Shown here: positions 3,709-22,339 of the stretch, piece after piece | Numbering within the stretch: the stretch's first letter is position 1 | How the letters are laid out: every line of letters begins with the position of its first letter | Sequence record: OK041467.1 | Direction: 5' to 3' (one strand) | DNA length: 35,826 bases | DNA from: Pseudomonas phage PAE2 | Notes under the pieces: generated by a model | What the model was told of the DNA's origin: nothing | Seen by the model: only the letters and a program-made list of their open reading frames with translations | Databases searched by the model: none | Translations under genes and position numbers: made by a program

Positions 3709-3726
3709 CCACACCAAATCCAACCA

Positions 3727-3750: not shown

Positions 3751-3795
3751 ATTCCCGACTTCCGGCGGAACCGGATGCATATCTTGGAGTGATCC

Positions 3796-4542
3796 ATGAC
3801 TGAAGAAGTGATTGACGTAGCAGTTGAGCCAACTGGACAGGAAGTCGAACCGGCGCAAGAGGCCGACATCAGCAGCACCGATCAGGCCGCGGTGCAGGAA
3901 GCGGAGCAGCAGGAACAGCAAGAAGAACCGAAGGCGAAGAAGCCTGATGCCTGGGTTCAGAAACGCATCGACCAGTTGACCCGCGAGAAGTACGAAGAAC
4001 GGCGCAGAACCGAGGCGCTACAGCAAGAAAACGAGACCTATCGGCGCCTGCTTGAGGCCCAGAAGGACGGCGAAAAGATCGAGTTGCCGACGCAACATAA
4101 GTCCGATCAAGACCCGTACGAACTGGCAAAGCAGATCCGCCGCCAGGAAGAGTTCAATGACCGCTGTAACAAGGCCTACGAGCAAGGCAAGACCGAGTTC
4201 GCCGACTTTGATGACAGCATCAAGAACCTCCAACTCCTGGGCCAGATCCCGCAAGACTTCCTTGAAGCCGTAACCGAGCTTGAGAAGCCCCATGCGGTGC
4301 TCTATGCCCTCGCGCAGGACCTCGACAACGCTGCACGCATCCTCTCCCTGCCACCCGTTCAGCAGGGCCGCGAACTTGAGCGCATTGCGCTGAAGGCCGC
4401 TGCCCCGAAAACCAAACCTGTATCCAAAGCTCCCGCCCCGATTGCCCCTATTGATGGCTCTCCGTCTGTCGAAGCAGATCCGACGAAGATGTCCATGGAT
4501 CAGTGGGTGAAGTGGCGCGAGTCACAACTTGCCCAGAGGTAA
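3796..4542 (+). CDS. scaffolding protein
   Basis: 248 aa, very acidic, Gln/Glu-rich with coiled-coil character; located between portal and coat as in P22; GGAG RBS. Confidence 0.6.
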   Translation: MTEEVIDVAVEPTGQEVEPAQEADISSTDQAAVQEAEQQEQQEEPKAKKPDAWVQKRIDQLTREKYEERRRTEALQQENETYRRLLEAQKDGEKIELPTQHKSDQDPYELAKQIRRQEEFNDRCNKAYEQGKTEFADFDDSIKNLQLLGQIPQDFLEAVTELEKPHAVLYALAQDLDNAARILSLPPVQQGRELERIALKAAAPKTKPVSKAPAPIAPIDGSPSVEADPTKMSMDQWVKWRESQLAQR

Positions 4543-4548
4543 TGCCAG

Positions 4549-5748
4549 ATGGCCAACTCCCTTCTGACGATCGACATGATCACTCGCGAGGCTCTGCGCC
4601 TCTTCATCAACTCCAATGCCTTCCTGAAGAACGTGGATCGTCAGTATGACGACCAGTTCGCCCGCACCGGCGCCAAGATCGGCGACACCCTGCGTATCCG
4701 CCTGCCGAACGACTACACCGTTCGTACCGGCAAGACGGCTTCGATTCAGGACACCGTCGAGCAGAATCGTTCGCTCACCGTCTCTACCCAGCAGGGTGTG
4801 GACCTGAGCTTCAGTTCTGCGGAGCGCGCTTTGAAGCTGGACGACTTCAGCGACCGCGTACTGCGCCCGGCTATGAACAACCTGGCTGGCGCTGTCGCTC
4901 TGTCGCTGATGGGCAACGCCGAAAGCGTCAGCAACATGATCTTCAAGGACAACGGATCGGGCGGTATCGCTACTCCCGATGCATCGACCTGGCTGCTGGC
5001 CGGCGCCAAGCTGGACAACAACAGCGCGCCGCGTGATCGCCGCAAGATCATGCTGGACCCGCTGACCCAGGCTCGTACCGTTTCGTCCCTGGCAGGCCTG
5101 TTCAACCCCCAGCAGAAGATCTCCGGCCAGTTCTCGACCGGCGAGATGTCGCGCGACACCCTCGGCTTCGACTGGTACATGGATCAGACCGTGCTTAAGC
5201 GCACCAACGGCACCTTCACTGCGGGCACCGTGAACGGCGCTGGCCAGACTGGCACCACCCTGACCACCAACGCCATCACTGGCACCTTGAACAAAGGCGA
5301 CGTGATCACCATCGCCGGCGTTCTGGCCGTGAACCGCGTAACCAAGCAGTCGACCGGTGAGCTTCAACAGTTCGTCGTGACTGCCAACGTTGCGTCTGGC
5401 GCCACTTCGATCCCGATCTACCCGGCGATCACCCCCGGCAACGTGGCGTATGCCACCGTTACCGCTTCGCCGGCAAACGGTGCCGCGCTGACCCTGATCG
5501 GCGGCGCTGGCGTGACCTTCCGGAAGAACCTGGCGTACTACCCGGAAGCATTCACTCTGGCCACCGCTGACCTGGAACTGCCGCGTGGCGTGCATGAGGC
5601 ATCGCGTCAGGTGTATGACGGCATCAGCATGCGTGCTGTAACCGCGTACAACGTGAACAGCGATGATTTCATCACTCGTCTGGACATCCTGTACGGGCAC
5701 ACCACGCTGCGCCCCGAATGGGGTGTTGCTGTGGCAGACGTCCTCTAA
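4549..5748 (+). CDS. major capsid (coat) protein
   Basis: 399 aa; position after the scaffold gene; followed by the strongest terminator in the window (12-bp GC stem); GAGG RBS. Confidence 0.7.
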   Translation: MANSLLTIDMITREALRLFINSNAFLKNVDRQYDDQFARTGAKIGDTLRIRLPNDYTVRTGKTASIQDTVEQNRSLTVSTQQGVDLSFSSAERALKLDDFSDRVLRPAMNNLAGAVALSLMGNAESVSNMIFKDNGSGGIATPDASTWLLAGAKLDNNSAPRDRRKIMLDPLTQARTVSSLAGLFNPQQKISGQFSTGEMSRDTLGFDWYMDQTVLKRTNGTFTAGTVNGAGQTGTTLTTNAITGTLNKGDVITIAGVLAVNRVTKQSTGELQQFVVTANVASGATSIPIYPAITPGNVAYATVTASPANGAALTLIGGAGVTFRKNLAYYPEAFTLATADLELPRGVHEASRQVYDGISMRAVTAYNVNSDDFITRLDILYGHTTLRPEWGVAVADVL

Positions 5749-5760
5749 CTGGGGCGAGCG

Positions 5761-5792
5761 ACAAAGGGCCCTTCGGGGCCCTTGTCGTTTCT
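5761..5792 (+). terminator. rho-independent terminator after coat gene
   Basis: GACAAAGGGCCC-TTCG-GGGCCCTTGTC hairpin followed by GTTTCT. Confidence 0.7.
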
Positions 5793-5802
5793 GGAGGTTC
5801 GA

Positions 5803-6030
5803 ATGTTCCAAGAATTTCCGAAATGGAAGTACAGCGTAAGCGGCAGCCAGATTGTCCAGGACGCCGCAGAGGAGCTTTCCCTTGGATCGGGATGGTTCGA
5901 CACACCTGAGGCTGCAATCCAGCCTTCGACGCTCACCAAGGATCAACTGCTGGCCCTCGCAGAAGAGAAGGGCGTGAAAGTCGACAAGCGCTGGAGCGCT
6001 GAGAAGATTTCCGCAGCCCTTGAGGCCTGA
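5803..6030 (+). CDS. small head protein with C-terminal HeH/Rho-N-like motif
   Basis: GGAGG RBS 6 nt upstream of ATG 5803; the C-terminal segment TKDQLLALAEEKGVKVDKRWSAEKISAALEA resembles a HeH DNA-binding motif. Confidence 0.5.
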   Translation: MFQEFPKWKYSVSGSQIVQDAAEELSLGSGWFDTPEAAIQPSTLTKDQLLALAEEKGVKVDKRWSAEKISAALEA

Positions 6031-6032
6031 CC

Positions 6033-6749
6033 ATGACGACCCCGAACGATCTGATCATCCTCGCCCTGAAGCAGGCAAACGTGCTTGGGGTCGGGCAGTC
6101 CGCCTCCGCTGAAGACATTCAGGATTGTTTTGCGCTGCTGAACATGATGCTCGCGCAATGGAATCGGCGTCGCTATGCGATCTATCACTTGAAAACGGTG
6201 AACATTGCATGCGATGGGAGTCAGTCGTACACCATTGGCCCGGGAGGCGATATTGATACGACTCGACCGAACAAGATCGAGTCCGCTTATTTCCGCCAGA
6301 TCATCACGTCTCCACCGAACCAGATCGATTACCCGCTGGAGATCATCCGTGCCCGCGAGGACTACGACCGTATCTATTTGAAGGATATGCAGTCGTTCCC
6401 GCAGTACCTGTTCTATGACTCGGATTATCCACTGGGGAACGTCTTCGTTTGGCCCATCCCGGACAACCAGTATCGGTTGTTCCTTACCGTGATGGAGCCA
6501 TTGCAGGTCTTCTCGACGGTATACGACGAGATTGAGCTTCCGCCGGAGTATCAGGAAGCGATCATGTACAACCTTGCGCTTCGTATCTACCCCATGTACG
6601 GCCTGCCTGTGAACGATGCCGTCGTACAGCTTGCCAAGGCCTCCATGAACATCCTGGAGGCGTCGAATGTGCAAGTGCCTAGGCTGAAAGTCCCAGGTTC
6701 GCTCACCCGGGGCGGCGTCTACAACCCCTATGCGGATCGTGTCCGGTGA
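6033..6749 (+). CDS. head-to-tail adaptor / tail accessory factor (P22 gp4-like)
   Basis: N-terminal NDLIILALKQANVLGVGQSASAEDIQDCFALLNMMLAQW resembles recalled P22 gp4 (GDLVRAALRKLGVASDAT...QDAVDDLEAMMAEW); position after coat. Confidence 0.6.
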   Translation: MTTPNDLIILALKQANVLGVGQSASAEDIQDCFALLNMMLAQWNRRRYAIYHLKTVNIACDGSQSYTIGPGGDIDTTRPNKIESAYFRQIITSPPNQIDYPLEIIRAREDYDRIYLKDMQSFPQYLFYDSDYPLGNVFVWPIPDNQYRLFLTVMEPLQVFSTVYDEIELPPEYQEAIMYNLALRIYPMYGLPVNDAVVQLAKASMNILEASNVQVPRLKVPGSLTRGGVYNPYADRVR

Positions 6750-8167
6750 AGTTCCCTCTTACCCAGGGCGCCTACGAGGCGCGCAGCGTCATTGCTAACG
6801 CACAGCGCTGCCTGAACCTATTCCCCGAGTCGAATACTGACGATGCGCCGTTCCCGATGACGCATTACACGACTCCAGGGCTTCTCCTGAAAGGGATTGC
6901 GCCGAGCGGCGACGGGTGGAGATGCCTGTACGCAGCAAACAACGGGAATCTGTACGGTGTCGCCGGAGAAAAGGTCTACCGGATCAAGCCGGACTTCACC
7001 TTCACTGAGCTAGGCTCGATCCTGTACAGCACTGGCCCTGTCTATGCCGTGGACAATGGCATCTATGTGCTGATGGTTGACGGTACCCTGAATGGGTACA
7101 CGATCAAGCTCAACACAGACGAGTTCGCGACTATCTCATCGTCTGCTTTCTACGGTTCGTCCAGGGTCGATCTTGCGGATGACTACCTCCTGCTCAATCG
7201 GCCAGGAACCAACCAGTGGTACATCTCGAAATTCCAGGCTGTCGAGTTCGATGCGCTTGATTTCGCCGCGAAAACTGGATTTTCGGACAACGTAGTTGCT
7301 GTAGCGGCGGCGAAACGACAGGTATTCGTCTTCGGCGAACTGACCACAGAGGTCTGGTTCAACGAAGGCAACACGGATTTCACGTTTAGCCGCATGCCTG
7401 GCGCGTTCATTCAGCACGGGTGCGCCGCTGTTGGAAGCATTCAACAAATGGACGGCTCGCTGTACTGGCTGAGCCGCAGCCCGCAAGGACATTGCGTATT
7501 CGTGCGTTCCGTTAACTACGAGGCCGCACGGATCTCCACTCATGCTATCGAGCAGGAAATCAGCAAATACGCCCGGATCGATGATGCCATTGCATACACC
7601 TATCAGCAGGAGGGGCACTTCTTCTATGTCGTGACGTTCCCGACTGCCGACAAGACGTGGGTCTACGACGTAGCAACTCAGTTATGGCATGAGCGTGCAT
7701 GGCTGGACGAGTTTGGCAAAGAGCATCGCCATCGGAGTAACTGCCATGCGTTTTGGCAGGGGATGACTCTTGTAGGCGATTGGGAAAACGGCAACCTCTA
7801 CGAGATGCGCCCTGACGTGTATCAGGACAACGGCGAGCCGATCCGGCGCGTTCGATCCTTCCCGCACATGTTGAGCGACTCTAACCGTGTCATGTATCGC
7901 GAACTGATCGCTGCAATGCAGGTTGGTGAGGGGCGCCCAGATAGCTTCGAGTCTGGTGAGCTTAGGTTGCGCTGGAGCGATACCGGAGGCGCCAGCTGGG
8001 GGAGTTCGATCAGTAGCGAACTTGGACCGCGCGGCGATCACATCCGATCTCTTCAGTTCCAGCGGCTCGGCTATGCCAGAGATCGAGTCTTCGAACTGTC
8101 ATGGATGGCCAACACAAAGACCGCGCTGAATGGCGTCTTCCTGCGCGTTGAAGAGGCCAACGAATGA
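6746..8167 (+). CDS. tail hub / packaged-DNA stabilisation protein (P22 gp10-like)
   Basis: GTG start overlapping the upstream stop (GTGA); 473 aa versus 472 aa for gp10; motif similarity is loose (YGVAGEKVYRI versus YRVCGGKLY). Confidence 0.5.
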   Translation: MKFPLTQGAYEARSVIANAQRCLNLFPESNTDDAPFPMTHYTTPGLLLKGIAPSGDGWRCLYAANNGNLYGVAGEKVYRIKPDFTFTELGSILYSTGPVYAVDNGIYVLMVDGTLNGYTIKLNTDEFATISSSAFYGSSRVDLADDYLLLNRPGTNQWYISKFQAVEFDALDFAAKTGFSDNVVAVAAAKRQVFVFGELTTEVWFNEGNTDFTFSRMPGAFIQHGCAAVGSIQQMDGSLYWLSRSPQGHCVFVRSVNYEAARISTHAIEQEISKYARIDDAIAYTYQQEGHFFYVVTFPTADKTWVYDVATQLWHERAWLDEFGKEHRHRSNCHAFWQGMTLVGDWENGNLYEMRPDVYQDNGEPIRRVRSFPHMLSDSNRVMYRELIAAMQVGEGRPDSFESGELRLRWSDTGGASWGSSISSELGPRGDHIRSLQFQRLGYARDRVFELSWMANTKTALNGVFLRVEEANE

Positions 8168-9036
8168 TGGACGTGAAGGCCAACATTCCAGAGTTCAACA
8201 CCCCATTCATTGGCCAGGACGGGCGAGTTAATTATGTCTGGTGGCAGTTTCTGCTGAAGCTATGGACGCGCACTGGAGGGACGTCTGGGAATGATGGCAG
8301 CGCGTCCCTAAATCTCATCAGGGCGCTCGAGGGAAGTGCAGCATCTGCCATCGCCTTTCAGGTCTATCCTGCCAATTCTCCGGCTCCAGACGGCCAGGTT
8401 TCGCGCCTGCCTAAGCCTTCTGTGGTCGTACCGGACCAGGCGGTCTATCAACATGGGATACATGACGCTGGAGATCTGCATGCCGCTGTGACGGCTTCTA
8501 AGAACGGATTCATGACGTCGGGTGACAAGTCCAAATTGGACAGTTTCCCTAATATTGCGCCTGTGGCGTTGACTGCTGACGCGACCATCGTCAACAGCAC
8601 GGCTGATGGGAACATTCTGCAACTGACTGCTCCGGCCAGCAGCCTGTCCGCCGGCTCGACCATTGGCGGACGCCTCTATGCCCTTGTTAGCTCGGCGGCT
8701 GCAACCGGAACATTGAGCGTCTGGATCAAGATCGGCGCGACAAAAGTAATCACGCAGACATTCACAATGCCCGCCCTGGGGCAGACAAACACAGGCATGT
8801 CTTACTACTTCACTGCCTCTGTGCGTACCACGGGCGCATCAGGGACGATCCAGCTATCTGCACTAATGACATCGAACGGTAACGCTCTGAATGCCGGGCC
8901 TGTCGTCTCGACTGCAAGCGCAACCATCAATACAACGATTTCTAACACGTTCACCCTAGGCTGGAACTGGAGCGTCGCCAACGCTGCAAACAGTGCCACC
9001 GCGAAGAACGCTGTCCTGAGCCAGGAGAAGCTATGA
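8164..9036 (+). CDS. tail fibre-like protein with phage tail-fibre repeat
   Basis: ATGA overlap with the upstream stop; NGFMTSGDKSKLD matches the Phage_fiber_2 repeat signature (G-L/F-M-S..DK.KLD). Confidence 0.5.
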   Translation: MMDVKANIPEFNTPFIGQDGRVNYVWWQFLLKLWTRTGGTSGNDGSASLNLIRALEGSAASAIAFQVYPANSPAPDGQVSRLPKPSVVVPDQAVYQHGIHDAGDLHAAVTASKNGFMTSGDKSKLDSFPNIAPVALTADATIVNSTADGNILQLTAPASSLSAGSTIGGRLYALVSSAAATGTLSVWIKIGATKVITQTFTMPALGQTNTGMSYYFTASVRTTGASGTIQLSALMTSNGNALNAGPVVSTASATINTTISNTFTLGWNWSVANAANSATAKNAVLSQEKL

Positions 9037-9365
9037 GTCTCACCTACAGCGAAATGATTCGTGGGCAGTTGCTCACGGCAACTCCGACCTCTTACTACAG
9101 CGCGCCGACCAACGCGTCGGCATCCATCCAGGCGGTAACGGCGAATAATCCAACTGGCGCCGCAGTGGTTGTTGACCTGTACAAGGTCCCATCCGGCTCT
9201 GCGGCAGATGGGACGACCAAAATTGCCTCGCGTACCGTGCCTGCTGGAACGACCGTCACCCTGTTCGATGCGCTGAACCATAAGCTCCAGTCTGGGACCG
9301 CTCTGTTTGCGGCGGGTAATGGTTGCGGCCTGAACGTTTCAGGCGTCGAGTACATCCCAGAATGA
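9033..9365 (+). CDS. hypothetical virion protein
   Basis: 110-aa ORF with ATGA coupling to its neighbours inside the tail module. Confidence 0.45.
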   Translation: MSLTYSEMIRGQLLTATPTSYYSAPTNASASIQAVTANNPTGAAVVVDLYKVPSGSAADGTTKIASRTVPAGTTVTLFDALNHKLQSGTALFAAGNGCGLNVSGVEYIPE

Positions 9366-9769
9366 TCGCATCGCCTGATTTCGTCAGGCAGATCATTACC
9401 CATCCGGAAGTGTGGCCGCATCTCTCGGAAGATGGGGATGACCCAGCCTGTTTTGAGCCAGCGGACGCGATCTACTTCCGCTATGCCAACTTCGGTTTCG
9501 TCGAGTTCCGAGCATGTGGGCGCCACTGGTACCAGGCGCACATCGCGATGCTTCGGGGCACTCCGCGCGTGCAGTCATTCGCCCGGTTGTGTATGGAGAT
9601 CATGCGCCGAGATCACGGCGCGCTGGCATTTACTGGCTTCATCCCGGCAACCAACCGGGCAGCACTAATCAATGCCCTGCGCTGCGGGTTTAGCGAAGAG
9701 GGCAGGATGAAAAACGTTTTCCTCAAGAACGGCCAACTGGTCGATATGGTTGTCATGGGAGCCAGATAA
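9362..9769 (+). CDS. hypothetical protein
   Basis: ATG 9362 overlaps the upstream stop (ATGA); the longer ORF from 9323 is Arg-rich and overlaps the upstream gene; only weak GNAT-like tail pattern (GF.EEG...G...D), not claimed. Confidence 0.4.
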   Translation: MIASPDFVRQIITHPEVWPHLSEDGDDPACFEPADAIYFRYANFGFVEFRACGRHWYQAHIAMLRGTPRVQSFARLCMEIMRRDHGALAFTGFIPATNRAALINALRCGFSEEGRMKNVFLKNGQLVDMVVMGAR

Positions 9770-10680
9770 TGGGCAGCGTCAAGAAGATCGTAGGCAGTAT
9801 CACCGGCAGCACTGGAGCAGATGCCGCCAAGGATGCGGCAAATGCGCAAGCGGCAGCGGCTAACAATGCTGCTCGGCTCACTCAGCAGCAATTCGATCAG
9901 TTGCGCAAAGACCTCTCCCCATTCGTATCCCTGGGGACTGGTTCCCAGAACGCGCTATTGCAGGCCATGGGTTTCAACCCGACGTTCAATAAGGACAACC
10001 AGCTAACGGGACTAACGGTCAACCCGAAGGCAGCGCTCCAGCAGAAATTCAATTTCACCGGACAGGACCTGGAGAATACCCCAGGGTACCAATTTGCCCT
10101 GGACCAGGGCATGCGTGCCGTGCAGAACAGTGCTGCCGCTCGCGGCCTCGGGCTCTCTGGCGCTCAACTGAAGGGGGCTACGCAGTTCGCCACGGGCCTC
10201 GCTGACCAGACCTATGGCGATCAGTACAACCGTGCCCTGAGCACCTACAACACCAATTATCAGACCGCCGCGAACAACGTGAACAACCTCATGCAGCTTC
10301 TGAACATCGGCCAGTCGTCCGCTGCCCAGACCGGGGTTGCTGGCTTGAATGCTGCAAACACCGCAGGTGGATACCTGACCCAAGGCGCAAATGCCATCGC
10401 CTCCGGCAAGATCGGTGCAGCCAACGCATATGGAAACGCTTTGCAAAGTGGCATTGGCACTGGTCTTGGTCTGTACGCGTTGTTGTCCGACCGGAGGATG
10501 AAGGTCGACATCAAGCGTGTCGGGCAGACTGACTCTGGGCTCCCGATCTACACCTATCGATACAAGGGGCAGCCCACTGTGCACATGGGCGTCATGGCCC
10601 AGGAACTTCAGGCCGTCAAGCCGGAAGCTGTTGTTGAGCGCGATGGAATCCTGTTCGTGAACTATGCCGAGGTGGCGTAA
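9769..10680 (+). CDS. fibre/needle-like virion protein with C-terminal peptidase S74 intramolecular chaperone domain
   Basis: Gly/Ala/Asn/Gln-rich 240 aa followed by SDRRMKVDIKRV...YTYRYKG...GVMAQELQAVKPEAVV...VNY, matching the SD-R-R-L-K...YxYK...AQEL...PEAV signature of the endosialidase-type chaperone. Confidence 0.6.
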   Translation: MGSVKKIVGSITGSTGADAAKDAANAQAAAANNAARLTQQQFDQLRKDLSPFVSLGTGSQNALLQAMGFNPTFNKDNQLTGLTVNPKAALQQKFNFTGQDLENTPGYQFALDQGMRAVQNSAAARGLGLSGAQLKGATQFATGLADQTYGDQYNRALSTYNTNYQTAANNVNNLMQLLNIGQSSAAQTGVAGLNAANTAGGYLTQGANAIASGKIGAANAYGNALQSGIGTGLGLYALLSDRRMKVDIKRVGQTDSGLPIYTYRYKGQPTVHMGVMAQELQAVKPEAVVERDGILFVNYAEVA

Positions 10681-12155
10681 TGGCTATCGATCCGAGCATC
10701 CCGCTTCAGGCATCAGCCGGTGGCGCCCAGAACCCTCTTGCTATGCTCTCGGCTGCAATGCAGTTGCGCGGGGCAAACCTGAACCAGAGCGCTCTTAATC
10801 AGCAGATCCAGGCAAACCAGGCGGCCTCTGCGGCGTACCAGCAAGCGACCGATCCAGCTACGGGCCAGATCGATTACAACAAGCTGACCGCGCTGCTTGC
10901 GAACTCGCCTGCTGCCTACAACCTGCCGCAGATACAAGCGCAGATCGCGCAGCAGAAGAACGCTCAGCTTGAGAGCCAATCGAAGCAGTTCGAGCTTGCT
11001 CGCAAGCAGGTTAATTGGCTCAAGGGCGGCCTTGGATCGCTACTTAACAACCCTGGGGTTAGCGGGGCGGACGTGATGAAGCTTGCTGCTGGAGGGATCG
11101 CGCAAGGCTTCCTTACGCCAGAACAGGCCGCCGAAGAACTTCGCTCCATGCCTTCCGACCCCCAGCAATTGCAGGGATGGCTGCGCAACCTCTATGTGCA
11201 GTCGCTCGACAGTGATGCTCAGCTTCAGGCCATCCAGCCTCAATTCCAGACTATCGATACTGGCTCTGCAATTGGCCTGGTCAATACCAACCCGTTGGCG
11301 GGCGGCCAGCAAGTCGGCCAGGTCGCCGCATCGTTCCAGAAAGGGCTTTCGCCGGAGACCGCAACGACCCCCACCGAGATCTTCAACCCGCAAACTGGCG
11401 CTCCTGAGCTAGTTACCCGCGCCCAATTCGCCGGCATGGCAGGTGGTGCGCCGAGCGGTAGATATCCTGGAACTCCTGGGATCAATCCTATGGGCGGTGG
11501 CGTACAAGCTGCTCCAGGAATCGGCCAGACCGCAGGCGCTGAAGTTGCGGCGCGTGGAGCTGCGGAGCGCTTCAACAACCTTGCCACTGAGGCTGGCAAT
11601 GTGCGGAATACCGTTCAGGGATATGACGCAGCGTTGGGCGCGCTGGAGAATCTCGGTCGATCAGGACCTGCTGTCGACAAGACGATGCTGATCAGCTCTA
11701 CGCTTGAGAGCTTGGGGCTTCCGTCCGACAAGGACGCGAACGCGAACTGGCAATCTCTGAACAAGTACCTGCAAAACGCTGGGGCGAGTGCGGCGGCGCA
11801 GGCCGGCTATGGCGGCACGGACGCGGGTCGAGCCGTCTTTGGAGAGGGGCAGCCTTCAGCCAAATCGATGAATCCTGAAGCGCTTCGTGAGGCCATCCAG
11901 TATGTGAAGGCACAGAACCTTGGCGTCCTGGCAAAGCAAGGGGCCGCCCAGCGCTTCATCGACCAGAATGGCGGTGACTACACGAAGTACAGCCAGTTCG
12001 AAACCCGCTGGAACAAGACCTATAACCCCGACGCCATGTTCTACATGAGCCTGCCTCCTGAACAGCAAACGGGCTACATCAAAGGCCTGTCTGCGGATAA
12101 GCGCAAGAAGCTGGCGGAGAGCATCCAGAAAATGGACATGCTGGGGGCCTTCTAA
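10680..12155 (+). CDS. internal virion / ejection protein (Gln/Ala-rich)
   Basis: 491 aa; TAATG coupling; low-complexity Q/A/G-rich; in the position of P22 ejection proteins. Confidence 0.5.
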   Translation: MAIDPSIPLQASAGGAQNPLAMLSAAMQLRGANLNQSALNQQIQANQAASAAYQQATDPATGQIDYNKLTALLANSPAAYNLPQIQAQIAQQKNAQLESQSKQFELARKQVNWLKGGLGSLLNNPGVSGADVMKLAAGGIAQGFLTPEQAAEELRSMPSDPQQLQGWLRNLYVQSLDSDAQLQAIQPQFQTIDTGSAIGLVNTNPLAGGQQVGQVAASFQKGLSPETATTPTEIFNPQTGAPELVTRAQFAGMAGGAPSGRYPGTPGINPMGGGVQAAPGIGQTAGAEVAARGAAERFNNLATEAGNVRNTVQGYDAALGALENLGRSGPAVDKTMLISSTLESLGLPSDKDANANWQSLNKYLQNAGASAAAQAGYGGTDAGRAVFGEGQPSAKSMNPEALREAIQYVKAQNLGVLAKQGAAQRFIDQNGGDYTKYSQFETRWNKTYNPDAMFYMSLPPEQQTGYIKGLSADKRKKLAESIQKMDMLGAF

Positions 12156-14752
12156 TGGCGAACTACGATGCTTGGATCGAAGAGGCAAGTAGAGCGCATA
12201 ACGTAGACCCCGGCCTTGTTCGCTTGCTTATCGGGCAGGAGAGTCGTGGTGATCCAAATGCCGTCAGCCCGAAAGGGGCGAGGGGGCTGGGTCAACTGAT
12301 GCCGGCGACGGCGGCAGAACTTGGTGTTGATCCTACTGACCCGCGTCAGAATATCTTTGGCACTGCGCGCTACCTGTCCCAGCAACTGGACAGATTCGGG
12401 TCAGTGCCTCTTGCCCTGGCCGCCTATAACGCAGGCCCAGGGACGGTTGAGCGAGTTGGCGGAATCCCTGACTACCCCGAGACTCAGAACTACGTGAAGG
12501 ACATCATGGCCAAATACCAAGGTGCGCAGCCTGCGTACGAGCCTTCTAGCGCTTCTGTGTCTGAGGCCCTTGCGCGACTGAACGGAGCGCCGGAGGCTGC
12601 TCCTGGCGGCGAGGGGTACCAGCCCTCCAGCCAGGCCGTTGCCGATGCCCTGTCGATGCTGAGCGCGCCTGTAGATGAGAAGGCTAGCGAGCCTGTCGCA
12701 CAGGCTTCTCAAGAAAAGGGCCTGGGAGATCGACTCAAGGACCTGAATGCGGCCATCAACGCCCCTGCTGTCGGCTTCTTCCGTGGCGTGCGGGAGATTG
12801 CAGATGCGCCGAGCGAGTGGCTTGCGAAAGGTTCGGAAGCAGCCGGAATCACGGACGCCTTGAAATCTCTTGGCATCGATATGCTGACTGGTGAAGAGCA
12901 GTTGGCAGCAAACAAGGCGCGCCGAGCAGGCTATGCGAACGAAAGCGGGTCAGAGCTTGCCGGCCGCGTCCTTGGCAACATTGCTGGCGTAATGGTCCCT
13001 ATGGCCGGAGCAGAATCCGCTCTTGCTGGTGGTGGGAATGCTCTACTTGGGGCGCTGTCGAATTCGCCTAGAGCTGCATCGGCACTCCAGGGCGTCGGGA
13101 ACTTCCTGTCTGGTCAGGGAGGGGCGCTCTCCAAGGCGGCATATGGCGCAGCGCAGGGGGCCGGATCTGCCGCGCTTATGTCTGGTGCGAGCGACTCGCC
13201 TCTGGTGAACCAGGTGGGTGCGGGCGCTGCCATTGGCGCAGTAACCGGTCCAATCGTGTCAGCTCTGGCTAATCCTGTTTCCCGCCTTGTCTCAAGAGCG
13301 CGCGGCGCAGCGACTCCTAATTCTGCCATCCAGAACAACGCAGATGAGGTCATGGAGCGTGTGCGGGTGACTCTTGAGGGTGGCGGCACCGACTTGTCCC
13401 AGATCCCACAGGGCATCCTCCGAGGTGTCAGAACTCAGGTTGAGGATGCTTTGCGTGCTGGGCGCCAGATCGATCCTGCGGCTCTTGCCAGGCAGGCGGA
13501 GTTCGAGGCGCTGGGGATTCAGCCAACCCTTGGACAATTGACCCGGGATGCCGGGCAGTTCACCGCCGAACGAAATATGCGCGGTATCGCAGGCGCCGGA
13601 GAGCCTCTAGCCCAGCGATTTGCAGAGCAGAACAACCAGCTTATGCAGATTCTGGGGCGGATGGGTGGCGCCGATGCTGTTGAGGCCGATGCTGCCGGGA
13701 ACGCTCTGGTCAACCGCCTACAGGCCTTGGACATGCCCCGTCGTGAAGCTGTCAATCAGGCGTACCAATCTGCCCGGGATTCTGCCGGTCGCTATGCCAA
13801 TATCGACGTTCCTACGTTTAGCCAGGCTGCAAATCAGGCGCTCGACGAAAACATGTTGGGGCGCTGGTTGCCGGGGCAGGTGCGGGACATGCTGAACGAC
13901 ATCAGTAGCGGTCGCATTCCCCTCAACGTCAATACCGCTGTCCAGGTCGATAGCGTCATGAGCGAAGCGCAACGCGCTGCTACCCGAGCTGGTGACTCCG
14001 CTGCCGCACGTGCGGTAGGCGTGGTTCGCGATGCGCTACAGGCCGCGCCAGTGGAAGAGGGCGCAGGTGCCGCAGCAAGGGCGCAGTTCGATGCTGCCAG
14101 AGGGCTCGCCCGCGCTCGCTTTGCGGAGATTGAGGGTATTCCGGCTCTGCGCGCAGCACTGGATGACGCGCGCCCGGATACGTTCGTGAAGAACTACATC
14201 CTGAATGGCGATCCGCGCGGCGTTACCGCCCTGGGACGTTATATTGCAGAAGACCCAGCTGCTATGCAGACCGCCAGATCACAGATCGCATCGCATCTCC
14301 AGGAGAAGGCATTCGGGCGCAATACTGCCGGTGATGCAACGTTCCGCCAGGACGCATACAACAAAGCGCTCCAGCAGATCGGAACCAACAAGCTGTCGGC
14401 GTTCTTCTCTCCAGAAGAGGTTCAGCAGCTACGCCTTGTAGGGCGAGTTGGCGCGAATATCAACGCCCAGCCGGTCGGGTCGGCAGTTAACAACTCGAAC
14501 ACCGCCGCTGCTGCTATGAACCTGCTCTCTGAGATGGGCGGATTCAGCAGCTACCCGGGCATCAACGTGGTCAGGGAGAGTTTTAGAACCTTCTCGAACG
14601 AAAGGGCTGCGCGCAATGCGTTGCTACCGCGTCTTGAGAGGGTTCAGACAGATCCAGCAGATGCAAATGCTCTGATTCGTTTGCTCACCTCTGGAACAAA
14701 CTCCCGAATCACTTCCGAGCAACCGCCTCGGCAAAAACAGCAACGGCAATGA
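12155..14752 (+). CDS. ejection protein with N-terminal lytic transglycosylase (SLT) domain
   Basis: 865 aa; N-terminal LLIGQESRGDPNAVSPKGARGLGQLMP...AAYNAGPGTV is a canonical SLT motif with the catalytic Glu in QES; Ala/Gly-rich remainder. Confidence 0.75.
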   Translation: MANYDAWIEEASRAHNVDPGLVRLLIGQESRGDPNAVSPKGARGLGQLMPATAAELGVDPTDPRQNIFGTARYLSQQLDRFGSVPLALAAYNAGPGTVERVGGIPDYPETQNYVKDIMAKYQGAQPAYEPSSASVSEALARLNGAPEAAPGGEGYQPSSQAVADALSMLSAPVDEKASEPVAQASQEKGLGDRLKDLNAAINAPAVGFFRGVREIADAPSEWLAKGSEAAGITDALKSLGIDMLTGEEQLAANKARRAGYANESGSELAGRVLGNIAGVMVPMAGAESALAGGGNALLGALSNSPRAASALQGVGNFLSGQGGALSKAAYGAAQGAGSAALMSGASDSPLVNQVGAGAAIGAVTGPIVSALANPVSRLVSRARGAATPNSAIQNNADEVMERVRVTLEGGGTDLSQIPQGILRGVRTQVEDALRAGRQIDPAALARQAEFEALGIQPTLGQLTRDAGQFTAERNMRGIAGAGEPLAQRFAEQNNQLMQILGRMGGADAVEADAAGNALVNRLQALDMPRREAVNQAYQSARDSAGRYANIDVPTFSQAANQALDENMLGRWLPGQVRDMLNDISSGRIPLNVNTAVQVDSVMSEAQRAATRAGDSAAARAVGVVRDALQAAPVEEGAGAAARAQFDAARGLARARFAEIEGIPALRAALDDARPDTFVKNYILNGDPRGVTALGRYIAEDPAAMQTARSQIASHLQEKAFGRNTAGDATFRQDAYNKALQQIGTNKLSAFFSPEEVQQLRLVGRVGANINAQPVGSAVNNSNTAAAAMNLLSEMGGFSSYPGINVVRESFRTFSNERAARNALLPRLERVQTDPADANALIRLLTSGTNSRITSEQPPRQKQQRQ

Positions 14753-14863
14753 AGCTCCAGTAAATCCACGCATTAAGTTCCGTAAAGTCAAACAACGCAA
14801 ATAAAACATCTTGCGCAACCTGCGTGAGATAGCCCATCTATTGCCTCGAAAAAGGTATTCGCC

Positions 14864-16873
14864 ATGACCCAACTGTTGCCCAACGGCAAGCAGCATTTTG
14901 TCGACAACAACGGGCATCCGCTCGTCGGTGGTCGGGTCTATCACTACTACGTAGGAACCAACAACCCAAAAGACACGTATCAGGATAGCGGCCAGACGAT
15001 ACCGAATACAAACCCCGTCGTTTTGGACGGGCGGGGAGAGGCAGCAATCTATGGGACCGGTCCGTATCGACAAGTGCTCCAGACTGCAACTGGAGTGTTG
15101 GTTTGGGACCAGGTAATCCCGGACGGAAGCCAGTTGGCACAGGATGGGCTGGACCAATTCAAGATCGACCTGGCGAACAGCTCTGATGCCACTAAGGGCG
15201 CAGCGCTTGTTGGCTACAAGCGCACGCCGCTCAGTGCAAGTATCGCCACCGTAAAGCAGATGCTGGATTCTACCGCCGTAAGGGTATGGGAATTTGCATC
15301 GCTGGTAACGAGCAAGCCGAACCTTCTCGACCCCTCCACATGGGATTGGACCCCCGCCTTGCAGGCTATGGTCGACTCTGCACAAGGATATATCTCCGGG
15401 TCTGGTTCGAAACGTGTTACTTGCCTGATTGGTCCGGGCACCTTCCTTATAAAGTCAGTCGTTTGGAAGTCCGGTGTTCATGTATATTTCTGCGGAGCAG
15501 AGCTGAAGGCTCACCCAAGTTCAGTTGATGGACTATCCTTGATTGATGCCTCTGCAACCCTTTCAGATATAGGATTCTACGGACCTGGGTCAATCAATGG
15601 AGATAAAGACAGCTTCCCCGCAGAGCATAGACAGCTTGGGATTAACTGCGTTGCAAAAAACGTTAAGGTTCGCGACCTGCTCATAGAGAATATTGGCAGC
15701 AATGCTGTTTATTCTCTAGGCGACGGAGTTATTTTCCGGCCAACAATCCCTGCTGGAGATTTTCAATGCGAAGACTGTGAAGTTAGCGGTTGCACATTTA
15801 GAAACATTGAGCGTCAATGCGTGACAGTCGAATCAGGTTTCAGGATAAGAATTTTTGGGAACTGGTTCTTCGATAGCACCTATTCAGCTGTAGACGTTGA
15901 GAATGCAGGCTATACGATGGGGGATGTAGATGGCGTTTTGTTCTGGGACAACTACGTCGATAATTGTCTCTATGGGCTAACTGCTGTGACTTTTCAGCCT
16001 GTAGATGCTCAGCGCAAGATTGTTTGCGGTGGGAATATCTTCAAGAACGTGATGGATGCATACCAATTCCGTGGCTGCTCTAATGTAAAGGTGGGATATG
16101 GGGACAATGCTGAAGTAACACGCTATGGAGCCTATCTGTATTCTGACGGGTCGACAACGGTCGACAACATCGAGATCGAAAACTTTACAGTATCTGGCGG
16201 GCAATATGGAATTTTTGGCCAAACCACTTCAGGCGGAGCCATTACTAGGGTAAAAGTAACAAATCCTAAAATTACCGGCTCTACCACCTCGGCCATTACA
16301 TTCCAAGCCACATCAGGTCTCACCATAAATGGTGGAGACATTCTTGTTAACGTCCCGGCTGGTGTCGTTATTACAAATTGTGCAAATCCATCTATTACAG
16401 GATTGAAAGTTTCGAGCGCTGTAGCTGTTACTGGAACAGCTATAGTATTTAATGGCACGACAACCCTTCCAAGATTTGGAGGTATCGACATAACCAACTT
16501 TAGCGTTGGAATATCTGTCAACACTTCCTCCCCAACAACTGTCGTCTCTGGGAAAGGCGGTGATAACGTCTTCAATAGTGTCACCACACCATACTCTACA
16601 TCTGTTGGGAATTATTGGAGGGGCACATACCATGGAACCTTTACATTGGCTGCTGCTTCCCAGACCAACGTCCCTACAGTTTTCGCCAATGCGGCTTCTG
16701 CTGTTGAGTTCATGCCTACTAACCAGGCCGCAGCGACTCTTTCTGCGAGCACGAAACGGCCATGGTGCAATCCAGCGGGTGTCAGCAACAATGTCAGTAT
16801 CCGGGTAGCGACCACTGATGGAACGGCGGCGGCTGGGACAGAGACGTACGCATACCGTCTGACTAACCCATGA
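14864..16873 (+). CDS. tailspike with conserved N-terminal anchor domain and right-handed beta-helix (pectate-lyase-like) distal domain
   Basis: 669 aa; AAAGG RBS; C-terminal two thirds rich in the short Asn/Gly/Val/Thr repeats typical of a parallel beta-helix; last structural gene before attP; GC drops sharply after about 15450. Confidence 0.7.
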
Positions 16874-16894
16874 TCTGAATGATTGAGGCCTGGA

Positions 16895-16912
16895 TGGGGG
16901 AATCCTGGGGGA
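16895..16912. repeat. 18-bp direct repeat TGGGGGAATCCTGGGGGA (copy 1), containing two GGGGGAAT 8-mers
   Basis: Exact 18-mer recurs at 17124-17141; additional inverted 8-mers ATTCCCCC at 17157-17164 and 17165-17172. Confidence 0.8.
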
Positions 16913-17041
16913 ATCAATCCCCCAAATGGCGATTTATGGTCATGGGGCAGTATGCGTGAATGGCGCGTGAATTCTGGTTCTCCTGGCTGCGGATGGCGCA
17001 GAATAGGGCCTGAAAACGGATTCGAAATCCGTTGAGTCAGC

Positions 17042-17078
17042 AATGGCTCCTAGGGTTCAAATCCCTATCTCTCCGCCA
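17042..17078 (+). other. attP core: 3'-terminal fragment of a tRNA gene (T-arm, acceptor 3' strand, discriminator G, CCA); likely a Ser-type tRNA
   Basis: TAGGG-TTCAAAT-CCCTA T-arm, TCTCTCC acceptor strand, then GCCA; the matching 5' acceptor GGAGAGA is not found upstream, so it is a fragment and not a gene; adjacent to the integrase. Confidence 0.6.
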
Positions 17079-17123
17079 TATACAAGGGCTCCAGAGGTTT
17101 TCGCTTCTGGGGCCCTTTTCCTT

Positions 17124-17141
17124 TGGGGGAATCCTGGGGGA
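17124..17141. repeat. 18-bp direct repeat TGGGGGAATCCTGGGGGA (copy 2)
   Basis: Identical to 16895-16912; flanks the tRNA-like attP core on the int side. Confidence 0.8.
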
Positions 17142-17156
17142 GTTGCTTCGCGTGAC

Positions 17157-17172
17157 ATTCCCCCATTCCCCC
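17157..17172. repeat. tandem inverted copies of the arm motif (ATTCCCCC x2)
   Basis: CATTCCCCCATTCCCCCA lies immediately upstream of the int start; it is the reverse complement of GGGGGAAT. Confidence 0.7.
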
Positions 17173-17187
17173 ACTAAAGTTCGCCGC

Positions 17188-18162
17188 ATGGCTTACTTCG
17201 AGAAACGCGGAAGCGCCTGGCGCGCACAGATCCGCAGAAAAGGACACCCAACTCTTTCCGCTACCTTCGATACCAAGGCTGAGGCCCAGCGCTGGGCAGC
17301 CGAGATCGAAGGCGATATGTCGCGCTCGAGATTTGTCGATACCAGAGCGGCTATGCGAACCACCCTAGGCAAGGCCTTGGAGCAATACGAAAGGGAGATT
17401 TCTGAGCACAAGAAGGGGGCCAGCCAGGAAAGGGGTCGAATCAGGAGATGGCTGGCGCATCCCCTGGCAGCGAAAGGGCTTGGAGAAATCACTCCGTCTG
17501 ATCTTGCTGAGTATCGTGACTCTCGGCTGAAGGATGGCGCCTCATCATCTACCGTTCGGCTAGATCTGGCGATCATCAGCCACCTCTATACCATTGCGGC
17601 AAAGGAGTGGAGGCTTGAAGGACTGACGAATCCCTGCAAGAACCTGCGTATGCCAAAAGGGAGTAGGGCGCGTGAGCGACGACCAACAACCCTGGAACTG
17701 CGGAAGATTTATGCTGAAGCGGCCAAGCTTCACCCTGAACTCCCGGTGATTATCGAACTGGCAGCCGACACAGCCATGCGCCGGTCTGAGCTTCTGCTGT
17801 TACGCCGAGAGCAGATCCGCGACAAGGTTGCGGTACTGGAGGACACGAAGAACGGTGAGCGTCGTATGGTGCCGCTCTCGAGCAGGGCTCGCGAGTTGCT
17901 GAAGTCCCTGCCTGCGCGAATCGACGGCAAGGTGTTCAGCCTTGCGCCAAACACAGTCAGCAACTACTTCCCCAAGGCTTGCGAGGCCGCCGGCGTCAGC
18001 GGCCTTACCTTCCACGACCTGCGCCATGAGGCCACATCTCGGCTGTTCGAACGCGGCTTTTCCATGATGGAGGTCGCCGCGATCACCGGGCACAAGACAC
18101 TGGCCATGCTCAAACGCTACACGCATCTTTCTCCTCACGCTTTGGCCGACAAGCTCGGCTAG
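17188..18162 (+). CDS. int: tyrosine integrase
   Basis: N-terminal MAYFEKRGSAWRAQIRRKG typical of phage integrases; catalytic residues R (AADTAMRRSEL), K (DTKNGERRMVPL), HDLRH and the Tyr in KRYTHL; the upstream in-frame extension from 17032 would run through attP and is rejected. Confidence 0.9.
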   Translation: MAYFEKRGSAWRAQIRRKGHPTLSATFDTKAEAQRWAAEIEGDMSRSRFVDTRAAMRTTLGKALEQYEREISEHKKGASQERGRIRRWLAHPLAAKGLGEITPSDLAEYRDSRLKDGASSSTVRLDLAIISHLYTIAAKEWRLEGLTNPCKNLRMPKGSRARERRPTTLELRKIYAEAAKLHPELPVIIELAADTAMRRSELLLLRREQIRDKVAVLEDTKNGERRMVPLSSRARELLKSLPARIDGKVFSLAPNTVSNYFPKACEAAGVSGLTFHDLRHEATSRLFERGFSMMEVAAITGHKTLAMLKRYTHLSPHALADKLG

Positions 18163-18404
18163 GCCCTCTTCAGCAGGCGCGGCGGTTCTTTCCGTGGCCT
18201 GCCCACCTTCGGAGCATTGTGCTCTCCCGCCTCGTACTCACGCAGGAACTTGCGCACTGTTTCCAGTCTCCAGCATACCCTGATCCCCTGCTTGAAGTAC
18301 GGCGGCAGCCAGTCAGGGCTCGCCTGGATTGCGCTGCGGATTGATGATTCAGTTCGCCCGAGCAGCTTGGCAAGCTCTGGCACATGGATGATTTCAGGTT
18401 CCAT
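18159..18404 (-). CDS. xis: excisionase / AlpA-family DNA-binding protein
   Basis: 81 aa from ATG 18404 (GGAGAGG RBS; a TTG at 18410 is also in frame); small basic winged-helix-like protein convergent with int; its stop overlaps the int stop (CTAG). Confidence 0.6.
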   Translation of the reverse strand: MEPEIIHVPELAKLLGRTESSIRSAIQASPDWLPPYFKQGIRVCWRLETVRKFLREYEAGEHNAPKVGRPRKEPPRLLKRA

Positions 18405-22168: not shown

Positions 22169-22339
22169 TTATCCCCTAGGGCCTGCTGCGGACAGGTGCG
22201 TAGCTGGTTGTTCTGCGGTGACTTCGCCAGTGATTGCGCCGCCGAGATCGATTGCCTTGAACACGATCAGGATCGCAACCATCGCGCCGAGCAGGGTGCG
22301 CTTGGTGTAGAGCATGATTCGCTTGAAGTGGTGGTTCAT
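22169..22339 (-). CDS. small membrane protein (56 aa, single TM helix)
   Basis: Hand-translated MNHHFKRIMLYTKRTLLGAMVAILIVFKAIDLGGAITGEVTAEQPATHLSAAGPRG; its ATG overlaps the upstream stop (ATGA); it fills an otherwise ORF-free 300-bp gap. Confidence 0.4.
   Translation of the reverse strand: MNHHFKRIMLYTKRTLLGAMVAILIVFKAIDLGGAITGEVTAEQPATHLSAAGPRG

What the first reader, a model, noticed from the sequence alone, without database searches (positions are those of the whole stretch)
16874..17196. attP with a tRNA 3'-end core flanked by six copies of a GGGGGAAT arm motif
Directly after the tailspike gene is a 37-nt stretch that is a textbook tRNA 3' end: T-arm TAGGG/TTCAAAT/CCCTA, acceptor TCTCTCC, discriminator G, CCA. 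No matching 5' acceptor strand is present, so it is a fragment. Around it an exact 18-mer, TGGGGGAATCCTGGGGGA, is repeated at 16895 and 17124. Each copy carries two GGGGGAAT 8-mers, and two further inverted copies (ATTCCCCC x2) abut the int start codon. That is the architecture of a tyrosine-integrase attP, core plus arm-type sites. It predicts integration into the 3' end of a host tRNA; the GCCA terminus suggests a Ser-type tRNA.
Basis: partly seen in the sequence, partly recalled or inferred. Interest (0 to 1): 0.6.

Follow-up and report, generated by a model that had tools for sequence, protein, structure and literature searches.

The report
Known tRNA-Ser phage attachment site
This is the site a temperate Pseudomonas aeruginosa phage uses to insert into the host serine-tRNA gene; the same site was already mapped experimentally in the sister phages Ab31 and YA3, so it is real but ordinary.

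Summary
Window 16895-17173 is an attP for the tyrosine integrase encoded at 17188-18162.

Corrections:
- The tRNA-identical block is 64 bp (17016-17079), not 37. It runs from the first base of the anticodon stem (anticodon CGA) through a long variable arm, T arm, acceptor strand and CCA, plus one base.
- It is 64/64 identical to the published attP of phage YA3, which equals the last 63 nt of the P. aeruginosa tRNA-Ser gene plus one base.
- GGGGGAAT occurs five times exactly here, not six. The shared word is TGGGGGA, with seven copies: three left of the core and four right.

The repeats behave as integrase arm-type sites, although binding is untested:
- They are invariant in 11 relatives while the spacers drift.
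- Homology with relatives begins exactly at the outermost repeat.
- Both arms switch together to TGGTGCA or TGGTACA in sister lineages.
- In 46 of 51 relatives the best repeat pair before int is spaced exactly 11 bp.
- A residue in the predicted arm-binding domain tracks the motif.

The core is already known. The arm sites were not found in the searchable literature, but they are expected. Low interest.

The parts
16895..16903 (+). P-arm site 1, TGGGGGAAT. It is the outer edge of the attP and of the int-attP module shared with other phages.
   Evidence: It is invariant in 11 relatives, and megablast homology to PAJU2, Ab31, YA3 and others starts exactly here.
16906..16914 (+). P-arm site 2, TGGGGGAAT, 11 bp after site 1.
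   Evidence: Its TGGGGGA part is invariant in the 11 relatives; Ab31 and YA3 read TGGGGGAGC.
16916..16924 (-). P-arm site 3, inverted (TGGGGGATT on the minus strand).
   Evidence: TCCCCCAAA is invariant in 11 relatives. It becomes TGCACCA in L125/L126 and TGTACCA in the L168 lineage, in step with the direct copies.
16925..17015 (+). P-arm spacer. It is variable among relatives, with short conserved islands that are candidate accessory-protein sites. Its right end is a decayed look-alike of the tRNA 5' half.
   Evidence: alignment of 11. One search gives a weak whole-length tRNA-Sec model hit at 16995-17077 (23 bits). ARAGORN calls a full tRNA here in relatives but not in the window.
17016..17079 (+). 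The 64-bp attP core identity block: the last 63 nt of host tRNA-Ser(CGA) plus one base.
   Evidence: It is 64/64 identical to the published YA3 attP and identical to the tRNA in P. aeruginosa attL contigs. It is invariant in all relatives.
17016..17032 (+). Anticodon stem-loop ACGGA-TTCGAAA-TCCGT. This is the inferred crossover region, with the 7-nt loop 17021-17027 as overlap and the 5-bp stem halves as inverted core-type Int sites.
   Evidence: The sequence shows this directly (I14). The left edge of the conserved block falls here. In L172, L173 and L226 the first two stem bases are already non-tRNA. The crossover position itself is inferred.
17084..17123 (+). Rho-independent terminator (15-bp stem plus T-rich tail). 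It would terminate the rebuilt tRNA gene in the lysogen and insulate int.
   Evidence: (-26.3 kcal/mol, z = -6.6). It sits directly after the tRNA in attL.
17124..17132 (+). P'-arm site 1, TGGGGGAAT, 64 nt before the int ATG.
17135..17143 (+). P'-arm site 2, TGGGGGAGT (one mismatch to GGGGGAAT), 11 bp after P' site 1.
17157..17173 (-). P'-arm sites 3 and 4, two inverted copies ATTCCCCCA that share one base. They fill the spacer of the only promoter-like match before int.
   Evidence: Promoter-like GTGACA-17-TAAAGT at 17152-17180 (a weak 9/12 match).
17188..18162 (+). int: a 324-aa tyrosine integrase with a predicted N-terminal arm-binding domain (residues 2-46).
   Evidence: The N-terminus MA[YTS]... 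is conserved across 65 relatives, which fixes the start at 17188.
18159..18404 (-). Candidate excisionase (81 aa, helix-turn-helix) converging on int.
   Evidence: weak HTH matches. (phrog_6355 at 4e-33 with unknown function; phrog_66 excisionase at 7e-4). The ORF at the same position in YA3 (converging on int, same 246-nt length) is annotated excisionase. It is conserved after int in relatives.

Best explanation
Window 16895-17173 is the attP of a lambda-style, two-handed tyrosine integrase (int, 17188-18162). It directs integration into the single-copy-looking tRNA-Ser(CGA) gene downstream of purC in Pseudomonas aeruginosa.

Shown:
- The phage carries a 64-bp copy of the tRNA gene, from the first base of the anticodon stem to one base past CCA.
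- Lysogens have a complete tRNA at attL, made of the host 5' part plus this block, followed by the phage's own terminator, the right-arm repeats and int.
- The block recurs at attR.

Inferred:
- Strand exchange occurs at the left end of the block. The 7-nt anticodon loop would be the overlap, and the two halves of the anticodon stem would be the inverted core-type sites for the catalytic and core-binding domains.
- The integrase's small N-terminal domain (three strands and a helix) binds the TGGGGGA repeats. There are three on the left arm (two direct copies 11 bp apart plus one inverted). There are four on the right arm (two direct copies 11 bp apart plus two inverted).
- That binding would bridge arms and core into an intasome.
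- The two inverted right-arm copies sit in the spacer of the only promoter-like match in front of int. Int could therefore also repress its own gene.
- The ORF at 18159-18404 is the likely excisionase.
For: Core:
- The block is 64/64 identical to the experimentally mapped YA3 attP. Ab31 was mapped to the same 64 bp in the PA14 serine tRNA gene.
- attL is seen in three P. aeruginosa contigs and attR in L130, L131 and L133.
- The Shamal record is bounded by the 64-mer at both ends.

Integrase:
- Pfam Phage_integrase match and invariant catalytic residues.
- AlphaFold model with mean pLDDT 89 and strands at 2-7, 10-15 and 23-27 followed by helix 30-46.
- The best Foldseek hit is full-length lambda Int 1z1g, aligned over 350 columns.

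Arm sites:
- 7 of the 10 TGGGGGA copies in the window fall within 279 bp.
- They are invariant in 11 relatives although the spacer between them and the core varies.
- Homology with other phages starts at the first repeat, and the 16.9 kb to its left has no megablast match.
- In sister lineages on the same tRNA the motif is TGGTGCA or TGGTACA at the same positions in both arms.
- In the 110 nt before int, the best repeat pair is spaced exactly 11 bp in 46 of the 51 relatives (of 65 examined) that have an 8/9 or better pair there.
- The residue after W-x-A/V in predicted strand 2 tracks the motif. K goes with GGGACA in 12 of 12 loci, R with TG[TC]NCC in 10 of 10, and L or I with GGTACA in 5 of 8.
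- The Int arm sites annotated in the phage P2 RefSeq record are likewise 11-bp-spaced pairs (TGTGGACA) in both arms.

Crossover position:
- The whole block from the anticodon stem to CCA is invariant in phage copies, while sequence to its left has drifted.
Against: - No binding or recombination data exist for the repeats. The assignment to Int rather than to the excisionase or a host factor rests on comparison only.
- The excisionase-like protein also differs between the three motif lineages, so it is not excluded as the reader of the motif.
- The residue-to-motif association is confounded by shared ancestry.
- The fine differences between the GGGGGA and GGTGCA lineages do not map to one clear residue.
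- L162 and L167 carry both GGTGCAA and GGGGGAA words with a single integrase type.
- No IHF consensus is present in the window.
- The crossover point cannot be read from these data, because attP and attB are identical over all 64 bp.
- The promoter match is weak: 9 of 12, with 0.4 expected by chance in the region.
Confidence: 0.85

Rival explanations
1. The TGGGGGA repeats are not integrase arm sites. They would be binding sites for another regulator, such as the excisionase-like protein or a repressor, that controls int transcription or directionality. The integrase would then need only the tRNA-like core.
For: The two inverted copies lie inside the only promoter-like match upstream of int. 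The small helix-turn-helix protein next to int also differs between the lineages that carry different motifs. Tandem direct repeats are also typical of excisionase sites (own knowledge of lambda X1/X2).
Against: The repeats flank the core on both sides, about 100-120 bp away, whereas excisionase sites are normally on one arm. The integrase has a confidently predicted lambda-Int-like N-terminal domain that needs a target. The motif tracks a residue in that domain across many lineages with different tRNA targets. P2, whose annotated Int arm sites have the same 11-bp pair layout, provides a precedent.
Confidence: 0.1
2. The stretch is a phage-encoded tRNA or tRNA-like gene with a function of its own, and the resemblance to an attachment site is secondary.
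For: ARAGORN calls an 85-90-nt tRNA-Ser over the equivalent region of some relatives (Ab31 L128, L129, L130, L133). The Shamal record annotates one. The tRNA-Sec model gives a weak whole-length hit in the window (23 bits against a 47-bit threshold).
Against: No tRNA is called in the window. The 5' half is not conserved among relatives, while the 64-bp block is invariant. There is no acceptor 5' strand to pair with TCTCTCC. Junction sequences prove recombination within the block.
Confidence: 0.03
3. The repeats are a chance feature or a low-complexity G-rich tract with no function.
For: The motif is short and G-rich in a 57% GC genome. TGGGGGA occurs 10 times in the whole window against 4 expected, and one shuffle in 100 reaches that number.
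Against: Seven of the ten copies lie in 0.8% of the window. The 8-mer count is never reached in shuffles. The copies are invariant in 11 relatives. They are replaced in concert in sister lineages. They hold an 11-bp spacing shared by 46 of 51 relatives.
Confidence: 0.02

Closest known systems
int-attP module of Pseudomonas aeruginosa phages PAJU2, vB_PaeP_Tr60_Ab31 and vB_PaeP_YA3, with integration into the PA14 serine tRNA gene PA14_51230 / PA14_RS20820
   Same: The module from 16895 onward is 96% identical in DNA to PAJU2 and 88-89% to Ab31 and YA3. The integrase is 100% identical to PAJU2 and 99% to Ab31. The 64-bp core is identical to the published YA3 attP. The repeats and terminator are the same.
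   Different: The module is joined to a different structural and tailspike half that has no near match among 50,697 phage records. The Ab31 and YA3 passages retrieved on integration describe only the 64-bp identity, not arm-type sites, and place part of the core inside over-extended ORFs.
Phage lambda attP and Int (core C-O-C' with arm-type sites P1, P2, P'1-P'3; heterobivalent integrase)
   Same: The predicted protein has three domains, and full-length lambda Int is the best structural match. The repeats on both arms are distinct from the core. The right arm has tandem direct copies about one helical turn apart. The attP spans about 280 bp.
   Different: Sequence identity is only about 23%. 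The target is a tRNA gene with a 64-bp identity block rather than a 15-bp core. No IHF consensus was found. The motif and the numbers of sites differ. Nothing has been tested biochemically.
Phage P2 attP (Int arm sites annotated in NC_001895) and the related HP1 integrase
   Same: P2's annotated P and P' Int sites are each a pair of direct repeats 11 bp apart: TGTGGTCA/TGTGGACG and TGTGGACA/TGTGGACA. This is the spacing seen here and in 46 of 51 relatives. The wider family's motifs (TGGGACA, TGTCACA) resemble P2's. HP1 Int is the closest of the three characterised integrases (HP1, P2, phiCTX) compared directly, at 26% over 333 residues and E = 4e-18. From my own knowledge, HP1 also targets the anticodon stem-loop region of a tRNA gene.
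   Different: Identity is low. P2 does not target a tRNA gene. In P2 the P' arm lies at the 3' end of int, whereas here it lies just upstream of the int start.
Phage phiCTX attP (P. aeruginosa, serine tRNA gene)
   Same: Same host species, a serine tRNA target, and repeats flanking the attP (record NC_003278).
   Different: It uses a different tRNA-Ser gene and sublocation. The 30-bp attP is the T-arm and 3' end, GAGTTCGAATCTCACCGCCTCCGCCA. The integrase is essentially unrelated (E = 0.017 over 66 residues).

Membership tests
Lambda-type (arm-binding, heterobivalent) tyrosine-integrase attP | Adjacent tyrosine recombinase with the Arg-Lys-His-Arg-His-Tyr catalytic set | tested here: met
   Pfam PF00589 at 3e-23. 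R198/R199, K221, H276, R279, H302 and Y311 are invariant in 54 homologues. There are matches to HP1, lambda and XerC-like structures.
Lambda-type (arm-binding, heterobivalent) tyrosine-integrase attP | Separate N-terminal arm-binding domain (three-stranded sheet plus helix) | tested here: met
   The AlphaFold model has strands 2-7, 10-15 and 23-27 and helix 30-46, with pLDDT 83-89. The top Foldseek hit is full-length lambda Int, aligned over 350 columns. The Pfam Arm-DNA-bind_4 match is weak (E = 0.008). This is a prediction, not a solved structure.
Lambda-type (arm-binding, heterobivalent) tyrosine-integrase attP | Repeated arm-type sites on both sides of the core, different in sequence from the core | tested here: met
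   There are three copies at 16895-16924 and four at 17124-17173. They are conserved, swapped in concert in sister lineages and spaced 11 bp across the family.
Lambda-type (arm-binding, heterobivalent) tyrosine-integrase attP | Core with inverted binding sites around a 6-8 bp overlap where strands are exchanged | tested here: inconclusive
   ACGGA-TTCGAAA-TCCGT (17016-32) has the right geometry and sits at the left edge of the conserved block. The cleavage points cannot be located, because attP and attB are identical over 64 bp.
Lambda-type (arm-binding, heterobivalent) tyrosine-integrase attP | Sequence identity between attP and attB, and a prophage flanked by direct copies of the core | tested here: met
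   published lysogen junctions; 64/64 identity; attL; attR; Shamal record ends.
Lambda-type (arm-binding, heterobivalent) tyrosine-integrase attP | Physical binding of Int to the arm motif, and a requirement for the arms in integration | not testable with these tools
   This needs EMSA or footprinting and attP deletion assays.
Lambda-type (arm-binding, heterobivalent) tyrosine-integrase attP | Sites for a DNA-bending host factor (IHF) and an excisionase | tested here: inconclusive
   There is no WATCAANNNNTTR match in the window. Conserved islands exist in the P-arm spacer. A candidate excisionase ORF is present, but its sites are unknown.
PAJU2 / Ab31 / YA3 tRNA-Ser(CGA) integration module | The same 64-bp attP and a near-identical integrase | tested here: met
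   The core is 64/64 identical to YA3 22196-22259. The integrase is 100% identical to PAJU2 and 99% to Ab31. DNA identity is 88-96% from 16895 on.
Functional tRNA gene | Complete cloverleaf with a paired acceptor stem | tested here: not met
   ARAGORN finds none in the window. There is no 5' strand complementary to TCTCTCC. Only a sub-threshold tRNA-Sec hit is found, at 23 bits against a 47-bit threshold.

The most novel reading that the evidence does not exclude
The arm repeats here may be one instance of a simple recognition rule that runs through a large family of tRNA-targeting integrases with the N-terminus MA[TYS]..KRG..W.A.[IV]RRKG. In this family a pair of arm sites sits exactly 11 bp apart just upstream of int. 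One side chain in the second strand of the arm-binding domain would set the site sequence: Lys with GGGACA, Arg with TGTCCA or TGCTCC, Leu or Ile with GGTACA, and Gln with GNCACA, GGGGGA or GGTGCA. If the rule is causal, arm specificity could be predicted or re-engineered from sequence.
Probability: 0.4. Interest if true: 0.45.

Novelty: already known. Interest (0 to 1): 0.22.

Why it matters
For this window the result gives a confident annotation:
- The host is P. aeruginosa.
- The insertion point is the tRNA-Ser(CGA) gene next to purC.
- attP spans 16895-17173.
- The true int start is at 17188.
- The phage supplies a terminator for the rebuilt tRNA gene.

It also corrects inconsistent annotation in related GenBank records. 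There the integrase appears with three different starts and is sometimes called a "shufflon-specific recombinase", and the decayed tRNA look-alike is annotated as a tRNA.

The attachment site itself is not new, because it was mapped in Ab31 (2014) and YA3 (2020). The modest added value is a defined set of arm-type sites, and a family-wide regularity (11-bp pairs, with the motif tracking one residue) that could guide design of minimal attP cassettes for P. aeruginosa integration vectors.

Tried and rejected
It returned tRNA-Ser genes from Vibrio, Photobacterium, Shewanella and other Pseudomonas, but not P. aeruginosa. I recovered the P. aeruginosa junctions through the integrase protein instead.
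- Rfam on the region gave no informative hit. The best match, 'Plastid-psbl-rps4' on the minus strand, is probably just the antisense of a plastid tRNA-Ser gene (my inference, not checked against the Rfam entry). 'ctRNA_p42d' and 'BjrC68' are matches to the terminator.
- Rfam on 20 distant attP-form loci did not detect 5'-truncated tRNA fragments. A T-arm regular expression found them in only 3 of the 20 loci. I therefore could not test the anticodon-stem sublocation across the wider family.
- There is no IHF consensus match in the window.
- I tried to use the excisionase-like ORF to separate 'Int reads the repeats' from 'Xis reads the repeats'. The ORF also differs between motif lineages, so this was not decisive.
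- I looked for single residues that explain GGGGGA versus GGTGCA among close lineages and found no consistent position.
- Williams 2002 (PMC100330), on tRNA sublocation classes, is not held. What I say about sublocation classes is from memory.
- Literature searches for the 17-mer and for arm-type sites in P. aeruginosa attP found nothing relevant.
Full report
**What is in the sequence**

A 669-aa tailspike-like ORF ends at 16873. It matches Pfam Beta_helix and a PHROG tail protein at 1e-260. An ORF with a Phage_integrase domain follows. Its start is the ATG at 17188, because relatives down to 38% identity all begin MA[YTS]... at that point.

- The 18-mer TGGGGGAATCCTGGGGGA is exact at 16895 and 17124.
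- GGGGGAAT occurs five times in the interval: at 16896, 16907 and 17125 on the plus strand, and at 17157 and 17165 on the minus strand. A sixth copy lies far away at 2463. Shuffles give 0.98 copies per window and never reach six.
- A better common word is TGGGGGA.

Reading leftward from the T arm there is a long variable arm and a complete anticodon stem-loop, ACGGA-TTCGAAA-TCCGT (17016-17032), with anticodon CGA. ARAGORN finds no complete tRNA in the window. Directly after CCA there is a 15-bp-stem terminator at 17084-17117 (-26.3 kcal/mol, z = -6.6).

**What it is**

Megablast of 16500-18200 against phage records hits 23 P. aeruginosa phages, including PAJU2 (96%), the CF-series, Ab31 and YA3. 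In 20 of the 23 records, homology begins exactly at window 16895, the first repeat. The other three start further right: Shamal at window 17016 and FBPa47 at window 17079 because those records are cut at the att core, and HB2107-3I within int.

Two papers sequenced lysogens.
- Ab31 hybrid reads centre on a 64-bp sequence shared with the PA14 serine tRNA gene PA14_51230 (PMC3974807).
- YA3 uses a 64-bp attP = attB made of the last 63 bp of that tRNA gene plus one base (PMC7326022).

The YA3 attP (22196-22259) is 64/64 identical to window 17016-17079.

I also recovered junctions directly.
- Three contigs (NCBI assemblies) encode P0002, a 99%-identical integrase that NCBI names as P. aeruginosa. 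They read purC, then a complete 90-nt tRNA-Ser(CGA), TATACAAGG and the phage terminator, the TGGGGGA repeats, and int. This is attL.
- IMG/VR prophage contigs L130, L131 and L133 show the left-arm repeats and the 64-mer followed by host DNA. This is attR.
- The Shamal GenBank record begins and ends with the 64-mer.

The window has phage DNA on both sides, so it is the attP form.

**Where the strands probably cross**

This is inference. The identity block starts exactly at the first base of the anticodon stem. The whole block is invariant in every phage copy, while the DNA immediately to its left has drifted. Only DNA to the right of the crossover ends up in the working tRNA of a lysogen, so selection on the whole block places the crossover at its left end.

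The anticodon loop (7 nt) flanked by the 5-bp stem halves has the geometry of an overlap region with inverted core-type sites. In the L172, L173 and L226 lineage the first two stem bases are already non-tRNA, which narrows the left limit to GGA|TTCGAAA. From memory, this is the 'anticodon-loop' sublocation in Williams' 2002 classification; that paper is not held.

L154 gives a supporting detail. It is an attL from another host whose acceptor stem is GGGAAGA/TCTTCCC. The 3' strand, which the crossover model assigns to the phage, matches the 5' strand, which it assigns to the host.

**Are the repeats integrase arm sites?**

Five lines of comparative evidence say yes.
1. In 11 close relatives, TGGGGGAAT-CTGGGGGA---A-TCCCCCAAA is invariant, while the roughly 90-bp spacer to the core varies widely.
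2. The first repeat is the boundary of the shared module. The 16.9 kb to its left has no near match in 50,697 phage records.
3. Sister lineages that use the same tRNA carry TGGTGCA (L125, L126, L191) or TGGTACA (L168, L172, L173, L226) at the same positions in both arms, including the inverted left-arm copy.
4. I examined 65 relatives (38-100% identity; targets include Ser, Arg, His, Val, Ala, Gly, Cys, Leu, Met, Thr, Asn, Pro and Glu tRNAs). The best repeat pair in the 110 nt before int is spaced exactly 11 bp in 46 of the 51 loci that have an 8/9 or better pair, out of six allowed spacings.
5. The integrase has somewhere to put them. The AlphaFold model (mean pLDDT 89) has three strands and a helix at residues 2-46. 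The best structural match is full-length lambda Int.

The residue after W-x-A/V in predicted strand 2 also tracks the motif. Lys goes with GGGACA in 12 of 12 loci, Arg with TG[TC]NCC in 10 of 10, and Leu or Ile with GGTACA in 5 of 8. Gln goes with GNCACA, GGGGGA or GGTGCA. This association is confounded by shared ancestry and is not proof.

**Closest characterised systems**

Among characterised systems, the Int sites annotated in the P2 RefSeq record are also 11-bp pairs in both arms (TGTGGACA). HP1 Int is the nearest of the three characterised integrases I compared directly (HP1, P2, phiCTX), at 26% over 333 residues. phiCTX, the classic P. aeruginosa tRNA-Ser integrator, uses a different tRNA-Ser and an unrelated integrase.

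**What remains open**

- Nothing here shows binding.
The ORF at the same position in YA3 is annotated as excisionase.
- No IHF consensus is present.
- The two inverted right-arm copies fill the spacer of the only promoter-like match before int (17152-17180, 9 of 12). This suggests autoregulation but does not demonstrate it.

**Verdict**

The attachment site and its target are already in the literature for phages carrying the same module. I found no description of the arm-type sites in the searchable library, but they are what the lambda/P2 paradigm predicts. I score interest as low. The family-wide 11-bp rule and the residue-to-motif pattern are the only parts with some wider value.

Noticed in passing
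window 1-16890: The whole structural half of the window, up to and including the tailspike, has no megablast match in 50,697 GenBank phage records. Everything from 16895 on is a mosaic of PAJU2-, Ab31- and MPK9-like early genes. The mosaic joint coincides with the outermost arm-type site.
   Followed up: partly
window 16990-17015; L128 10084-10170; L183 735-824: The phage DNA just left of the core is a decayed look-alike of the tRNA 5' half. ARAGORN calls an 85-90-nt tRNA-Ser across it in Ab31, L129, L130 and L133, and the Shamal record annotates one, but not in this window. It may be a relic of capture of the whole host tRNA locus. The host and phage terminators after CCA also look alike.
   Followed up: partly
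window 17032-17187: The int reading frame stays open upstream to a TTG at 17032, running through the core, terminator and arm sites. Related records annotate int with three different starts: PAJU2 short, and CF23a and Shamal long. CF23a names it 'shufflon-specific DNA recombinase'. The Ab31 and YA3 papers describe the core as overlapping a gene. These look like annotation artefacts.
   Followed up: partly
L162, L167, L166 (upstream of int): In these 75%-identity relatives, the right arm carries both TGGTGCA(A) and TGGGGGAAT words in tandem. In L162 and L167 the left arm mixes TGGGGGAAT with TGGTG. They look like recombinant or transitional arm sets with a single integrase type.
   Followed up: no
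L154 1-236: This is an attL from another host whose tRNA-Ser acceptor stem is GGGAAGA/TCTTCCC instead of GGAGAGA/TCTCTCC. The 3' strand (phage-derived on the crossover model) carries the two compensating changes, so the phage copy tracks its host's tRNA.
   Followed up: no
L190-L269 (metagenome relatives): Many contigs end 200-230 nt upstream of int, just beyond the tRNA. This is consistent with assemblies breaking at the duplicated att core. The family sits next to at least 13 different tRNA isoacceptor types.
   Followed up: no
L175 about 1290-1330: A 68%-identity integrase (named Azomonas agilis by one source) is preceded by ACGGATTTCGAATCTGT. This is an anticodon-stem-loop look-alike with no T arm or acceptor after it. 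It may be a degenerate or retargeted site.
   Followed up: no
window 17024-17075, minus strand: The best Rfam hit in the region is 'Plastid-psbl-rps4 3'UTR' (42.7 bits, below the 68-bit threshold) on the opposite strand. It probably reflects only that this plastid family overlaps an antisense tRNA-Ser gene (my inference, not checked against the Rfam entry), so it is not a finding.
   Followed up: yes
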